Virus record (IMG/VR): IMGVR_UViG_2609459840_000006 | DNA: 8,504 nucleotides | Strand: one strand, 5' to 3' | Source: a virus | Lineage: Duplodnaviria > Heunggongvirae > Uroviricota > Caudoviricetes | Shown: in pieces, positions 1 through 2,424 of the stretch | Layout of the letters: every line of letters starts with the position of its first letter | Position numbering within the stretch: position 1 is the stretch's first letter | Notes under the pieces: generated by a model | Databases searched by the model: none | What the model was told of the DNA's origin: nothing | Seen by the model: only the letters and a program-made list of their open reading frames with translations | Program-made: the position numbers and the translations under genes

Positions 1-146
1 CTTACACCGCTTCTCAACCCGGTACGCACCAGAAAATCATTGATATGGCCATGAATGGCGTTGGATGCCGGGCAACTGCCCGCATTATGGGCGTTGGCCT
101 CAACACGATTTTACGTCACTTAAAAAACTCAGGCCGCAGTCGGTAA
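1..146 (+). CDS. insA: IS1 InsA, C-terminal part (5'-partial; frame starts at nt 3)
   Basis: Frame 3 reads [47 protein letters not shown] then TAA at 144-146, matching the InsA C-terminus as I recall it. Confidence 0.85.
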
Positions 147-568
147 CCTCGCGCATACAGCCGGGCAGTGACGTCATCGTCTGCGCGGAAATGGACGAAC
201 AGTGGGGCTATGTCGGGGCTAAATCGCGCCAGCGCTGGCTGTTTTACGCGTATGACAGTCTCCGGAAGACGGTTGTTGCGCACGTATTCGGTGAACGCAC
301 TATGGCGACGCTGGGGCGTCTTATGAGCCTGCTGTCACCCTTTGACGTGGTGATATGGATGACGGATGGCTGGCCGCTGTATGAATTCCGCCTGAAGGGA
401 AAGCTGCACGTAATCAGCAAGCGATATACGCAGCGAATTGAGCGGCATAACCTGAATCTGAGGCAGCACCTGGCACGGCTGGGACGGAAGTCGCTGTCGT
501 TCTCAAAATCGGTGGAGCTGCATGACAAAGTCATCGGGCATTATCTGAACATAAAACACTATCAATAA
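65..568 (+). CDS. insB: IS1 InsB frame; in vivo expressed as InsAB' transposase by -1 frameshift at the A6C motif (122-128)
   Basis: 167-aa ORF in the -1 frame relative to insA. The slippery run ttaaaaaac at 120-128 sits in the insA/insB overlap, and the stop at 566-568 lies inside the right IR. Confidence 0.85.
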
Positions 569-583
569 GTTGGAGTCATTACC
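561..583. repeat. IS1 right terminal inverted repeat (23 bp)
   Basis: atcaataagttggagtcattacc is the reverse complement of the canonical IS1 end ggtaatgactccaacttattgat. Confidence 0.75.
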
Positions 584-589
584 AAAGTT

Positions 590-625
590 ATTAAAAATGG
601 GGCGTTGAAACGCCCCCAAAAATAA
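590..625 (-). terminator. Rho-independent terminator, probably for the porin transcript
   Basis: GC stem ggggcg/cgcccc (599-604 / 611-616) with loop ttgaaa; on the minus strand it is followed by a U-run (atttttaa). It lies 14 bp from the IS1 end. Confidence 0.5.
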
Positions 626-654
626 AGGGTAATATATAACAGAAGGTTTGTATA

Positions 655-740
655 GTTAGAAGCAAGGTTGTGCTTCTAAAGGAAGTGGCTTGAGGGAGCC
701 ACTTATATGTTGGGGAGGCAAAGCCTCCCACAACATATCT
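655..740. other. Three consecutive stem-loops in the porin 3' region
   Basis: agaagca-aggttg-tgcttct (659-678); gtggct-tgaggg-agccac (685-702); and a long hairpin atatgttggggaggc-aaa-gcctcccacaacatat (705-738, about 15 bp stem with one bulge), followed on the plus strand by cttttag. Confidence 0.4.
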
Positions 741-753
741 TTTAGTAATCAAA

Positions 754-1836
754 TTAGAACTGGTAAACCATACCTACAGCAACGATATCATCGGTAGCAA
801 CGCCAGATGCTTTCGTGAAATCGCTCTTATCAATCAGGTTGATTTTGTAGTCAACAAAAGTGGACATATTTTTGTTGAAGTAATAGGTTGCACCTACATC
901 AACATATTCAACCAGGTCCTGATCACCCCAAACACCCAAGTCTTTTCCTTTAGAATGCAGGTAAGCAACGGATGGACGCAGGCCGAAGTCGAACTGATAT
1001 TGTGCAACAGCTTCGAAGTTTTGTGCTTTGTTGGCAATATGGTTATTACCAAAAACAGTCATGTTCTGGGTTTCAGAATAGGTGGTGGCCAGATAGATGT
1101 TGTTCGCATCATATTTCAGACCAGCTGCCCATACTTCAGCATTTTGACCAGAAGCATTCAGACCGTTGTTACCGTAGATAACCTGATTATTAGTGCGATC
1201 AGATTTAGCATAGGTTGCACCCACGCCGAATCCTTCATACTCATAAGTAGTTGAGAAACCGAAACCATCGCCATTAGCTTCAGTTACTTCATTTCGGTCA
1301 TTTTTGCCCTGATACTGAGCTGCAAAGTTCAGGCCATCAACCAGACCAAAGAAGTCGTTGTTACGATAAGTTGCAACACCTGTGGTGCGACCAGTCATGA
1401 ATACATCTGTTTGGGTCCAGGTATCGCCACCGAATTCTGGCAGAACGTCAGTCCACGCACCGATGTCGTATGCTACACCGTAGTTACGGCCGTAATCGAT
1501 TGAGCCGTAGTCACCGAATTTCAGGCCTGCAAATGCAAGACGGGTTTTGTCTTTGGAGGAACCTTGAGATTCAGCGCGGTTGCCTTTGAATTCATATTCC
1601 CACTGACCGAAACCAGTCAGTTGATCGTTGATTTGGGTTTCACCTTTGAAGCCAAGACGGGCATAAGTAGTATCACCATCATCTGCATCATTAGAGGAGA
1701 AGTAGTGCTTAGCATTAACTTTCCCGTACAGATCCAGCTTGTTACTGTCTTTATTATAAATTTCAGCTGCCTGAGCAGACATCGCCATCAGTACTGATGC
1801 AGCTACAGCAGAAATTGCCACTGTTAATTTTTTCAT
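754..1836 (-). CDS. nmpC: Outer-membrane general porin, NmpC / phage Lc type (OmpC/OmpF/PhoE family), 360 aa
   Basis: N-terminal signal peptide [23 protein letters not shown]|AEIYNK, porin motifs throughout and the C-terminal aromatic ..VGMVYQF. The sequence matches my memory of NmpC/Lc. ATG at 1834-1836 on the minus strand. Confidence 0.9.
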
Positions 1837-2165
1837 CGTGAGCCCTTTTTTTTGAACTATTATTAAAAAATGATGTCACTGCGCGATAAATATTCATCTA
1901 ATCAATGTGATTATTTCAAGATGTAAGTTTTAGTTTCTCATTTAATTTGTGAAGTAGATCTCTATTTTTATCTGAACTTTTTCTATCGAAACCTATTTAT
2001 GGCTCTTATTTGAACAAAAATAAACCTATTAGCTAATTTATATTAATGGCTGTTATTTATGGGGGTTCTATAATTCGGCAGTTTAATTTAAATCAACTAA
2101 AAATAACGTCTGAAATTATTTATTGGTTATTTGTTGAGGTTTTCTTATGTATTTGTGGTGGAGTT

Positions 2166-2194
2166 TTGAACACTCGGTAGCATTCTCATAAATA
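2166..2194 (+). promoter_or_regulatory. Candidate sigma70 late promoter (pR'-like) upstream of the lysis cassette
   Basis: TTGAAC (2166-2171), 17-bp spacer, TAAATA (2189-2194); resembles lambda pR' (TTGACT-17-TAAATT) as I recall it. A weak hairpin plus T-runs at about 2259-2300 could be a tR'-like terminator. Unverified. Confidence 0.25.
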
Positions 2195-2424
2195 TCATTC
2201 AGCGGTTTACGTACGTAAAAAATTGGTTATGCTGTTAAGAGTGGTTACTTCGTCACACAGCTTAAACCCGCCGTCGAGCTGGTTTTTCCATTTTTTGAGT
2301 CTCGATATTAGCTGATAACTCAATACCTGAGTTATTCACTGACTCCGAGTCTGTTACGTTTCTGCTTTTTTGCGATACGTTGTATTCCCTCAATTTACAC
2401 CCGCTTTGTCTGCGAGGTGGGGTT

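What the first reader, a model, noticed from the sequence alone, without database searches (positions are those of the whole stretch)
584..753. Dense stem-loop array in the 170-bp porin 3' spacer
Four hairpins are packed into 170 bp: a terminator-like GC stem (599-616), two 6-7 bp stems (659-678, 685-702) and an unusually long, almost perfect ~15-bp stem (705-738). This is more structure than a simple terminator needs. It may be an mRNA-stabilising 3' UTR, a small RNA, a REP-like element or a recombination joint.
Basis: seen in the sequence. Interest (0 to 1): 0.4.

Follow-up and report, generated by a model that had tools for sequence, protein, structure and literature searches.

The report
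Phage porin 3' tail RNA (IpeX)
The four hairpins are real and are the already named IpeX RNA, the tail of a prophage porin message that shuts down the host porins OmpC and OmpF; the unpaired stretch between the hairpins is a strong antisense match to the ompC and ompF ribosome-binding sites, although published reviews say IpeX has no such match.

Summary
Observation confirmed. Window 584-753 holds four stem-loops (705-738, 683-704, 656-679, 599-616), far more stable than shuffled sequence (z about -8.5).

It is the 3' untranslated tail of a prophage porin gene of the Lc/NmpC kind (754-1836, minus strand). It is 96-97% identical to the region downstream of lc in phage PA-2 and of nmpC in the K-12 prophage DLP12. 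That region is the published ipeX locus (167 nt, inhibits OmpC and OmpF), so the element is already known. It is not a REP element, not a promoter leader and not coding.

New here:
- The same layout (three hairpins, unpaired linker, terminator) follows diverged porin genes on phage P7 and on plasmids. Nine base pairs show compensatory changes.
- The 39-nt unpaired linker pairs in silico with the ompC leader from -32 to -6 (15 + 9 bp, -26.4 kcal/mol, equal to MicC-ompC). It pairs more weakly with the ompF start region. It does not pair well with ompA, phoE, ompN or the element's own porin.
- The P7-type linker is a near-perfect antisense of the ompF start region.

Reviews state that IpeX does not base-pair with ompC. 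I could not read the primary paper. The base-pairing reading is an in silico inference that can be tested directly.

The parts
584..753 (-). Whole 3' untranslated region of the prophage porin message; corresponds to the ipeX / IpeX locus of DLP12 and PA-2
   Evidence: It starts directly after the porin stop codon (porin ORF 754-1836; Pfam Porin_1, E 3.6e-152). It is 95.9-96.6% identical to the region downstream of lc in PA-2 (J02580) and of nmpC in K-12 DLP12. Reviews place ipeX in DLP12/PA-2 as part of the porin transcript, 167 nt long.
705..738 (-). Hairpin A: long stem of 8 + 7 bp with one bulged U, loop UUU, starting 15 nt after the stop codon
   Evidence: -22.2 kcal/mol, z -7.5. The outer stem is kept in P7-type relatives through two compensatory changes (U-A, U-A to C-G, G-C).
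683..704 (-). Hairpin B: 8-bp stem with the invariant 6-nt loop CCCUCA (691-696)
   Evidence: -10.4 kcal/mol, z -4.4. Three of its 8 pairs show changes on both sides, with G-U intermediates that only pair on the porin-sense strand. The loop is 100% identical between the two subfamilies.
656..679 (-). Hairpin C: 8-9 bp stem, 6-nt loop
   Evidence: -9.6 kcal/mol, z -6.3. Three of its 9 pairs change on both sides between subfamilies.
617..655 (-). Unpaired AU-rich linker. The proposed antisense seed is 619-649: a 15-nt block at 634-648 and a 9-nt block at 620-628.
   Evidence: Predicted unstructured (0 kcal/mol; opening cost 1.6-2.1 kcal/mol). Pairs with ompC -32..-6 at -26.4 kcal/mol. This is reached by 0/2000 seed shuffles, 3/2000 target shuffles and 0/13312 genomic windows. 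The core is 78% identical between subfamilies, against 55% for stem columns.
593..616 (-). Intrinsic terminator of the porin message: GC stem 599-616, then A + UUUUU (593-597) on the minus strand
   Evidence: It is the only terminator-like site found in window 560-2400 (same site in L004). On the plus strand the stem is followed by A-rich sequence, not U.
754..1836 (-). Porin gene of the Lc/NmpC kind (360 aa) whose message carries the element
   Evidence: It is 100% identical to the porin of phages ev099 and ev243, 90% to PA-2 Lc and 82% to P7 NmpC.
1..583 (.). Context, not part of the element: end of an IS1 copy abutting the 3' UTR
   Evidence: 99.7% identical over 583 nt to IS1 of K-12. The junction lies 9 nt beyond the U-tract, so the terminator is intact. 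The same junction occurs in an IMG/VR contig (L048).

Best explanation
Window 584-753, read on the minus strand, is the 3' untranslated tail of a prophage porin message (Lc/NmpC kind). It is the element published as ipeX/IpeX.

Its layout is modular:
- three hairpins directly after the stop codon;
- a 39-nt unpaired AU-rich linker;
- an intrinsic terminator.

When the phage porin is transcribed, the tail is made with it. It may act within the full message or after processing.

Proposed mechanism (inferred, not shown): the linker acts as an antisense seed.
- It pairs with the ompC leader from -32 to -6. This covers the Shine-Dalgarno sequence and overlaps the MicC site.
- It pairs less strongly with the ompF start region.
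- Pairing would block translation of the two major host porins while the phage porin, whose own start region does not match, replaces them.

The three hairpins probably keep the seed as an isolated single-stranded domain. They may also protect the porin message, or a processed RNA, from exonucleases.

Shown here: the structures, their conservation with compensatory changes, the linkage to the porin gene, and the complementarity with its statistics. Taken from the literature: the element's name and its effect on OmpC and OmpF. Inferred: that pairing is the mechanism.
For: Identity
- 96-97% identical to the DNA downstream of lc in PA-2 and of nmpC in K-12 DLP12.
- Reviews describe ipeX as a 167-nt RNA of DLP12/PA-2, made as part of the porin transcript, that lowers OmpC and OmpF.
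- 167 nt is the distance from the porin stop codon to just past the terminator U-tract.

Strand
- A U-tract follows the terminator stem only on the minus strand.
- G-U pairs in the stems would be A-C mismatches on the other strand.
- The element follows the porin gene whatever lies downstream: Q in lambdoid phages, ssb in P7 and plasmids.

Structure
- A covariance model built from the lambdoid type finds the P7 and plasmid types at E 3e-11 to 3e-18.
- 97.7% of pair cells are standard pairs, against 37-51% when partners are slid.
- 9 of 32 pairs change on both sides, and 0/500 shuffles reach the covariation score.

Pairing of the window-type linker
- With ompC: -26.4 kcal/mol, the same as the validated MicC-ompC duplex scored the same way (-26.5).
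- With accessibility costs added, ompC (-15.9) and ompF (-11.0) rank above all 101 control start regions (best -6.8). ompA is +4.4 and the element's own porin is -1.8.
- The two-RNA minimum-energy fold keeps all four hairpins and forms the duplex.

Pairing of the relatives
- P7-type and E. fergusonii plasmid linkers pair with ompF -15..+9 at -23.4 to -26.1 kcal/mol and with ompC at -20.8 to -23.4. They pair with ompA, phoE, ompN and their own porins only at background level.

Fit with published behaviour
- The pattern matches the reported phenotype: OmpC and OmpF go down and OmpA is unaffected.
- From my memory of the 2006 abstract, the ompC effect is Hfq-independent (long duplex) and the ompF effect needs Hfq (weaker duplex).

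Target conservation
- The ompC leader is at least 99% identical in 5338 of 5371 E. coli genomes.
Against: - Reviews state that IpeX has no complementarity to ompC and does not act by base pairing. As I recall its abstract, the primary paper (Castillo-Keller et al. 2006, PMC1347279) says the same.
- I could not read that paper. If its deletion analysis showed the linker to be dispensable, the model fails.
- The ompF match of the window-type linker is not significant against shuffles (311/2000 and 161/2000). It stands out only against real sequences (0.6-2.5% of genomic windows).
- Sequence diversity is low. There are two clades, so few independent substitutions, and the covariation alignment was fitted to the model structure.
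- All lambdoid-type copies are at least 90% identical, so conservation of the seed within that type is uninformative.
- No expression, 3'-end or binding data could be consulted.
- The terminator U-tract is short (5 U), which is poor for Hfq binding.
Confidence: 0.7

Rival explanations
1. This is the published view. IpeX lowers OmpC and OmpF without base pairing. The structured hairpins would act indirectly, for example by titrating a protein or triggering an envelope or RNA-decay response. On this view the complementarity of the linker is fortuitous or a relic.
For: Reviews say that no complementarity exists and that regulation is indirect or does not involve pairing. The hairpins are conserved with compensatory changes, and the loop CCCUCA is invariant, so the structured part is clearly under selection for something.
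Against: The complementarity plainly exists, and it is specific to the two reported targets in every family member. Its strength equals that of MicC-ompC. The diverged P7-type linker keeps, and for ompF improves, the match.
Confidence: 0.17
2. The array is purely cis-acting 3'-end furniture. On this view it is a terminator plus hairpins that stabilise the porin message and insulate the convergent Q and porin transcription units. It would have no trans-acting role, and the linker would be a non-functional inverted remnant of a porin 5' end.
For: The porin and Q genes converge here. The terminator is on the porin strand. Hairpin A is followed by CUUUU on the plus strand, so it might slow read-through from Q. 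The complement of the linker looks like a porin start region (AAAGGGUAAUAAAUAAC AUG AAG UUA AA in the P7 type).
Against: Published genetics assign a trans effect on OmpC and OmpF to this DNA. The linker core is better conserved between subfamilies than the stems (78% against 55%). The same array occurs where there is no convergent Q gene. The scan does not call hairpin A a plus-strand terminator.
Confidence: 0.1
3. The array is a REP-like dispersed palindromic repeat or another mobile or recombination element.
For: A 2025 survey with a broad definition of REP tags ipeX as containing a REP. An IS1 end abuts the array.
Against: There is one copy per porin cassette, with a median of 1 and a maximum of 4 per genome, and 2938 of 2940 places are chromosomal. 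It is always next to the porin gene. There are no terminal repeats or target duplications around it.
Confidence: 0.02
4. The plus strand is the functional one. On this view the spacer holds the phage late promoter pR', the Q-loading site and a short terminated leader RNA, like lambda 6S RNA or StxS.
For: The spacer lies just after the Q gene, where pR' sits in lambda, 82 and Stx phages. Hairpin A plus CUUUU could be read as tR'.
Against: The promoter and palindrome motif (TTTACGTACGTAAA ... TGTTAAGAGTGG + terminator) follows Q of this family in about 25 loci of seven genera and in Stx phages. In this window it is found at 2206-2290, beyond the porin gene. No promoter-like site is found in the spacer.
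Confidence: 0.01

Closest known systems
IpeX / ipeX of prophage DLP12 (nmpC) and phage PA-2 (lc), Castillo-Keller, Vuong and Misra 2006
   Same: Same locus and essentially the same sequence: 96-97% identity, directly downstream of the porin stop codon, on the porin strand, ending at the same terminator.
   Different: This copy follows an intact porin gene. In K-12 the gene is split by IS5. This copy also has an IS1 inserted just past its terminator. The literature describes IpeX as acting without base pairing, whereas the sequence analysed here shows a long, specific antisense match to ompC and ompF.
MicC, the chromosomal antisense small RNA that represses ompC
   Same: The predicted IpeX site on ompC (-32..-6) overlaps the region that the MicC 5' end pairs with in the same calculation (-47..-14). 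The IpeX seed shares GUUAUAU and CCUUUAUU with the MicC 5' end, and the duplex energy is equal (-26.4 against -26.5).
   Different: MicC is a free-standing gene with its own promoter and a 5'-terminal seed. Here the seed is internal, lies in an mRNA 3' UTR behind three hairpins, also covers the Shine-Dalgarno sequence, and is carried by mobile elements. There is no overall homology apart from one shared 11-mer.
MicF, the antisense small RNA that represses ompF
   Same: The P7-type linker is a near-perfect antisense of the ompF start region (-15..+9), the region MicF is known to cover (general knowledge; energies).
   Different: It has a different sequence, genomic position and origin. It also targets two porins with one seed.
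Small RNAs derived from mRNA 3' UTRs (for example CpxQ, SroC, DapZ)
   Same: The regulator is embedded in the 3' end of a protein-coding message and shares its terminator. No internal promoter-like site is found, which fits the processing from a longer transcript stated.
   Different: It is carried by a phage or plasmid accessory gene. Its targets are functional competitors of the protein encoded on the same message.
StxS and lambda 6S RNA (short leaders of the phage late promoter)
   Same: Also a small RNA encoded next to the Q gene of a lambdoid prophage.
   Different: It lies on the opposite strand and has a different promoter. The late-promoter leader of this phage is at 2206-2290, not here.

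Membership tests
IpeX (ipeX locus of DLP12 / PA-2) | Lies directly downstream of the stop codon of the prophage porin gene nmpC/lc, on the same strand | tested here: met
   The porin ORF ends at 754 and the element is 584-753 on the minus strand. The arrangement is the same in PA-2 and K-12.
IpeX (ipeX locus of DLP12 / PA-2) | Sequence identity to the DLP12 / PA-2 sequence | tested here: met
   95.9% over 168/170 nt to PA-2 J02580 and phage 434B. 96.6% over 175 nt to K-12 DLP12.
IpeX (ipeX locus of DLP12 / PA-2) | About 167 nt, ending at a Rho-independent terminator | tested here: met
   From the stop codon to the terminator U-tract is 161 nt (to 593). 167 nt reaches window position 587. The length is quoted. 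The exact published ends could not be checked because the primary paper is not held.
IpeX (ipeX locus of DLP12 / PA-2) | The RNA is made and lowers OmpC and OmpF but not OmpA | not testable with these tools
   Taken from the literature only. The in silico target ranking is consistent with it.
Base-pairing small RNA acting at ribosome-binding sites (MicC/MicF-like mechanism) | An accessible single-stranded seed with significant complementarity to the target start region | tested here: met
   For ompC, 0/13312 genomic windows and 0/2000 seed shuffles reach the observed energy. The opening cost of the seed is 1.6 kcal/mol.
Base-pairing small RNA acting at ribosome-binding sites (MicC/MicF-like mechanism) | Repression is lost with seed mutations and restored by compensatory target mutations | not testable with these tools
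   Needs an experiment.
Base-pairing small RNA acting at ribosome-binding sites (MicC/MicF-like mechanism) | Hfq-binding module: terminator hairpin with a long U tail and an adjacent U-rich stretch | tested here: inconclusive
   A U-rich stretch (UUUAUUUUU) precedes the terminator, but the tail is only AUUUUUAA.
Intrinsic (Rho-independent) terminator | GC-rich stem-loop followed by a U-tract on the transcribed strand | tested here: met
   Met for 616-599 on the minus strand only. Hairpins A, B and C do not meet it on either strand by the scan.
REP (repetitive extragenic palindrome) elements | Many dispersed copies per genome in unrelated intergenic regions | tested here: not met
   Median 1 and maximum 4 places per genome, all in the porin cassette context.
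Late-promoter (pR') leader and Q-loading region of the Q21/933W family | The promoter with the TTTACGWWCGTAAA palindrome, followed by a terminator | tested here: not met
   The motif is absent from 584-753 and present at 2206-2219. The family motif was defined.
Any Rfam family | Score at or above the family's gathering threshold | tested here: not met
   No hit at gathering level. The best sub-threshold score is 19 bits against a cut-off of 50.

The most novel reading that the evidence does not exclude
IpeX is not an exception to base-pairing regulation. On this reading it is one member of a family of antisense seeds embedded in porin 3' UTRs. The family is carried with accessory porin genes by lambdoid prophages, by P1/P7 phage-plasmids and by conjugative or mobilizable plasmids.

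Proposed mechanism and origin:
- The seed directly occludes the ribosome-binding sites of ompC (a bipartite 15 + 9 bp duplex overlapping the MicC site and the Shine-Dalgarno sequence) and of ompF.
- The seed looks like an inverted copy of a porin translation start region.
- The invariant hairpin loop CCCUCA may add a loop-loop contact with UGAGGG, which lies in the ompC leader hairpin and in the ompF Shine-Dalgarno region.

If true, this would overturn the 'novel mechanism, no complementarity' description that has stood since 2006.
Probability: 0.6. Interest if true: 0.6.

Novelty: already known. Interest (0 to 1): 0.45.

Why it matters
The element itself is already catalogued, so finding it is not news. 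What matters is the mechanism.

IpeX has been cited for twenty years as a porin regulator that works without base pairing. The sequence shows a duplex with ompC as strong as that of MicC. A diverged relative on phage P7 is almost a perfect antisense of the ompF start region.

If pairing is confirmed, three things follow:
- It explains how a prophage swaps the host's major porins for its own. By my own knowledge, OmpC is the receptor of PA-2, so the swap would bear on exclusion of superinfecting phage.
- The same device is carried on plasmids in E. coli, E. fergusonii, Klebsiella and Salmonella.
- Porin loss affects antibiotic entry, which bears on antibiotic permeability in clinical strains. 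About 46% of complete E. coli genomes carry the element.

The test needs only a few point mutations.

Tried and rejected
- Late promoter in the spacer. I first suspected that the spacer held the late promoter pR', a sigma-dependent pause element (TATAGT at 651-656) and tR' (hairpin A), by analogy with phage 82. This was rejected. QuuD belongs to the Q21/933W family. That family's conserved promoter and palindrome motif lies at 2206-2290, beyond the porin gene.
- Rfam. No family matched at either threshold.
- Search with the Q protein across one genome per species. It gave 30 loci, but the spacer occurs only next to Q proteins that are 95-100% identical, all in E. coli. The spacer therefore does not travel with Q.
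- Search with the porin protein in IMG/VR. All returned copies were 98-100% identical, so they had no value for covariation.
- Plain MAFFT alignments of the two subfamilies (A1 and A2). They shifted the 5' arm of hairpin A by two columns. I used a covariance-model alignment instead, which leans towards the modelled structure.
- False leads. 'Salmonella phage SPF_0923' is the chromosomal ompN region, not a phage porin. Locus L224 is a chance match inside unrelated sequence with no porin context.
- Literature access. The primary IpeX paper and one supplement were not held.
- Annotation. The current RefSeq record of K-12 does not annotate ipeX, so the published coordinates could not be compared directly.
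- Conservation of the seed within the lambdoid type. This was not informative, because there are too few variable sites overall.
- Coding potential. The mechanical 53-aa ORF at 591-752 is broken by 1-nt indels between alleles.

Full report
**1. What is in the sequence**

Window 584-753 lies between the end of an IS1 copy and a porin gene.
- The IS1 copy covers window 1-583 and is 99.7% identical to IS1 of K-12.
- The porin gene is a 360-codon ORF on the minus strand, 754-1836. It matches Pfam Porin_1 at E 3.6e-152.

| Hairpin | Window | Stem | Energy |
|---|---|---|---|
| A | 705-738 | 8 + 7 bp, one bulge | -22.2 kcal/mol |
| B | 683-704 | 8 bp, loop CCCUCA on the minus strand | -10.4 kcal/mol |
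| C | 656-679 | 8-9 bp | -9.6 kcal/mol |
| terminator stem | 599-616 | 7 bp | -12.5 kcal/mol |

On the minus strand no shuffle of any single hairpin folds as well (0/200 each). The whole 170 nt has z = -8.5 on the minus strand and -8.8 on the plus strand. Between hairpin C and the last stem lie 39 nt (617-655) that are predicted to be entirely unpaired.

**2. Which strand and which gene it belongs to**

Three points assign the array to the porin-sense (minus) strand.
- Only on the minus strand is 599-616 followed by a U-tract (AUUUUU). It is the single terminator-like site in 560-2400 (the same site in an intact relative).
- In relatives without IS1, the antiterminator gene quuD ends 18 nt to the left of position 584 (E. 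coli 120899, phage ev017, K-12 DLP12, 434B). The spacer there is a 188-bp gap between convergent genes.
- The array follows the porin gene into quite different surroundings (section 5).

I first thought the plus strand might carry the late promoter and its leader, as in lambda, 82 and Stx phages. That is wrong.
- QuuD is a member of the Q21/933W family.
- That family has a very conserved motif directly after Q in about 25 loci from Citrobacter, Trabulsiella, Pantoea, Xenorhabdus, Providencia and Morganella, and in Stx phages. The motif is TTTACG-WW-CGTAAA, then TGTTAAGAGTGG, then a terminator.
- In this window the motif is at 2206-2290, between the porin gene and the holin gene.

The porin cassette is therefore inserted between Q and pR', and the spacer is not a promoter region.

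**3. Identity**

The 170 nt occur in 2510 of 5426 complete E. coli genomes, at 90-100% identity in all but a few partial or weak matches. There is a median of one copy and at most four copies per genome, nearly all chromosomal. They also occur in 36 phage records, including PA-2 (J02580) and 434B. In PA-2 the match lies directly downstream of lc, and in K-12 directly downstream of the IS5-split nmpC.

Reviews in the held library describe ipeX/IpeX as follows:
- a 167-nt RNA of the cryptic prophage DLP12 and of PA-2;
- made as part of the porin transcript;
- lowers OmpC and OmpF.

A list of K-12 small RNAs in genome order places ipeX between chiX and sokE, which fits DLP12. From the stop codon, 167 nt reaches just past the terminator U-tract.

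I conclude that the finding is the ipeX locus. The exact published ends could not be checked, for two reasons. The primary paper is not held. The RefSeq record of K-12 does not annotate the RNA. Rfam has no family for it.

**4. Options that can be dismissed**

- Not a REP-type repeat. There is one copy per porin cassette and never a copy elsewhere. A 2025 survey with a broad definition does tag ipeX as 'REP'.
- Not coding. The mechanical ORF 591-752 is broken by single-base indels between alleles.
- Not a recombination joint in itself. The IS1 junction at 583/584 sits 9 nt beyond the U-tract and leaves the element intact. The same junction is present in an IMG/VR contig (L048).

**5. A wider family, with covariation**

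A porin 82% identical to this one is carried by phage P7 and its relatives. Its 3' UTR has no blastn-level similarity to the window, yet it folds into the same order of parts:
- a long hairpin (AUAUGCGGG...CCCGCAUAU);
- a hairpin with the loop CCCUCA;
- a third hairpin;
- an AU-rich unpaired stretch;
- a terminator.

The P7-type 3' UTR is in 116 plasmid records, with variants down to 81% identity. These include IncK2/Z, IncI1 and IncHI1B-typed plasmids of E. coli and E. fergusonii, plus a few from Klebsiella and Salmonella. The terminator differs between members, while the three hairpins and the linker stay.

A covariance model built only from four lambdoid-type copies finds all five P7-type copies full-length at E 3e-11 to 3e-18. 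On that alignment:
- 97.7% of pair cells are standard pairs, against 37-51% when partners are slid by 1-3 columns;
- 9 of 32 pairs have changes on both sides;
- no shuffle of 500 reaches the observed covariation score (0.264 against a mean of 0.118);
- G-U intermediates occur that pair only on the porin-sense strand.

Caveats: there are only two clades, so few independent events, and the alignment is fitted to the model.

Between the two clades, stem columns are 55% identical. The hairpin B loop is 100% identical and the linker core is 78% identical. This is the pattern expected if stems matter as structure and the loop and linker matter as sequence.

**6. The linker is antisense to the host porin start regions**

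The window-type linker (AAACCUUCUGUUAUAUAUUACCCUUUAUUUU, window 649-619) pairs with the K-12 ompC leader from -32 to -6.
- The duplex has a 15-bp block covering the Shine-Dalgarno sequence GAGGG.
- It also has a 9-bp block, separated from the first by a small internal loop.
- The energy is -26.4 kcal/mol.

Scored the same way, the 5' end of MicC gives -26.5 kcal/mol on an overlapping site. MicC was verified from the K-12 sequence. The two seeds share GUUAUAU and CCUUUAUU.

The ompC energy is reached by:
- 0 of 2000 dinucleotide shuffles of the seed;
- 3 of 2000 shuffles of the target;
- 0 of 13312 sliding windows over 100 kb of K-12, both strands.

Opening costs are 1.6-2.1 kcal/mol for the linker and 5.5-8.8 for the ompC site. 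The joint minimum-energy fold of the two RNAs keeps all four hairpins and forms this duplex.

With opening costs added, the totals are:

| Target | Total energy (kcal/mol) |
|---|---|
| ompC | -15.9 |
| ompF | -11.0 |
| best of 101 unrelated start regions | -6.8 |
| element's own porin | -1.8 |
| phoE | +2.0 |
| ompA | +4.4 |
| ompN | +8.0 |

Taken alone, the ompF match of the window type is weak. It is not significant against shuffles.

The P7-type and E. fergusonii linkers give the same picture with the emphasis reversed.
- CUUCAU-G-UUAUUUAUUACCCU is almost the exact reverse complement of ompF -15..+9 (-23.4 to -26.1 kcal/mol). At most 0.05% of 6656 background windows reach this.
- UUAACUU-CAUGUUAUU matches ompC around the start codon (-20.8 to -23.4 kcal/mol).
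- ompA, phoE, ompN and the elements' own porins score at background level.

The ompC leader is at least 99% identical in 5338 of 5371 E. coli genomes. The K-12 sequence is therefore a fair proxy for the unknown host.

Read on the other strand, the P7-type linker looks like a porin translation start (AAAGGGUAAUAAAUAAC AUG AAG UUA AA). This suggests an origin as an inverted copy of a porin 5' end. That is inference.

**7. How this sits with the literature**

Reviews say that IpeX has no complementarity to ompC and does not base-pair. One says the mechanism 'does not rely only on' complementarity. Another assumes pairing for some targets. In the open library only 17 papers mention IpeX together with porin, and none has it in the title or abstract. 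I found no follow-up study of its mechanism.

My recollection of the 2006 abstract is that:
- OmpA is unaffected;
- the ompC effect does not need Hfq, but the ompF effect does;
- no complementarity was found.

The first two points fit a long duplex with ompC and a weaker one with ompF. The third is contradicted by the sequence. Because I could not read the paper, I cannot exclude that its deletion data argue against the linker. This is the main uncertainty.

**8. Most likely working**

When the prophage porin is transcribed, its message carries three protective or insulating hairpins, an exposed seed and a terminator. The seed pairs with ompC and ompF messages at their ribosome-binding sites and blocks their translation. 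The porin's own start region is spared.

The host's major porins are thereby replaced by the phage porin. By my own knowledge OmpC is the receptor of PA-2, so this would also exclude superinfecting phage.

Status of each step:
- Shown here: the structures, their conservation, the linkage to the porin gene and the complementarity.
- From the literature: the effect on OmpC and OmpF.
- Inferred: the mechanism and the role of the hairpins.

**9. Verdict**

The added value is a specific, well-supported and easily tested explanation for a regulator that has been described as mechanistically unexplained. A second addition is the recognition that the same device accompanies porin genes on P7-like phage-plasmids and other plasmids.

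Noticed in passing
window 1-583 (junction 583/584): End of an IS1 copy (99.7% identical to IS1 of K-12). It is inserted 18 nt after the position where the Q gene (quuD) stops in intact relatives and 9 nt beyond the porin terminator U-tract. It therefore separates Q from the porin gene and the late region. The identical junction is in IMG/VR contig UViG_2606217174_000006 (L048). The other IS1 end and any target duplication lie outside the window.
   Followed up: partly
window 2206-2290: Late promoter region of the Q21/933W family: the palindrome TTTACGTACGTAAA (2206-2219), TGTTAAGAGTGG (2232-2243) and a terminator hairpin. The same motif directly follows Q in about 25 loci of Citrobacter, Trabulsiella, Pantoea, Xenorhabdus, Providencia and Morganella, and in Stx phages. 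Here it lies 1.6 kb from the Q position because the porin cassette sits between Q and pR'.
   Followed up: partly
window 2266-2287: The stem of the late terminator (tR') is polymorphic. This window and PA-2 read GAGCTGG, with a predicted hairpin of -4.5 kcal/mol. K-12 and E. coli 120899 read GAGCGGG, at -12.0 kcal/mol. Of the loci held, 27 have the weak form and 49 the strong form. The weak form might allow leaky late transcription.
   Followed up: partly
window 691-696 (minus strand loop CCCUCA): The loop of hairpin B is invariant in both subfamilies although its stem covaries. Its complement UGAGGG lies at the top of the 5' hairpin of the ompC leader and forms the Shine-Dalgarno region of ompF. 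Only 2 of 101 control start regions contain UGAGGG. This is a possible second, loop-loop contact.
   Followed up: partly
window 705-715 (minus strand CCAACAUAUAA) and micC of K-12 (L122:1687-1697): An 11-mer is shared by the 3' arm of hairpin A and the middle of MicC. It is not collinear with the shared seed words. It may be chance or a trace of common origin.
   Followed up: no
L124:2017-2215 (phage P7); L126:1493-1700, L127-L129:401-610 (plasmids): Porin genes with the same kind of 3' UTR are carried by P1/P7-like phage-plasmids. They are also on plasmids typed as IncK2/Z, IncI1/B/O and IncHI1B, next to ssb genes, in E. coli, E. fergusonii, Klebsiella and Salmonella records (116 plasmid records).
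   Followed up: partly
window 591-752 (minus); L001:180-389; L002:3124-4532: A mechanical 53-aa ORF lies over the spacer. So do the deposited annotations 'ORF1' (PA-2) and 'hypothetical protein' (434B, phage Chlobot). They are probably spurious, because single-base indels between alleles break the frame.
   Followed up: partly
L007:1976-2003 (Stx2 phage II): In the Stx2 phage a strong terminator-like hairpin (AACCCGCCGATGCGCGGGTTTTTTT) lies only about 20-45 nt after the inferred pR' start. Yet the published StxS precursor is 258 nt and ends at a later terminator. How the first hairpin is passed was not examined.
   Followed up: no
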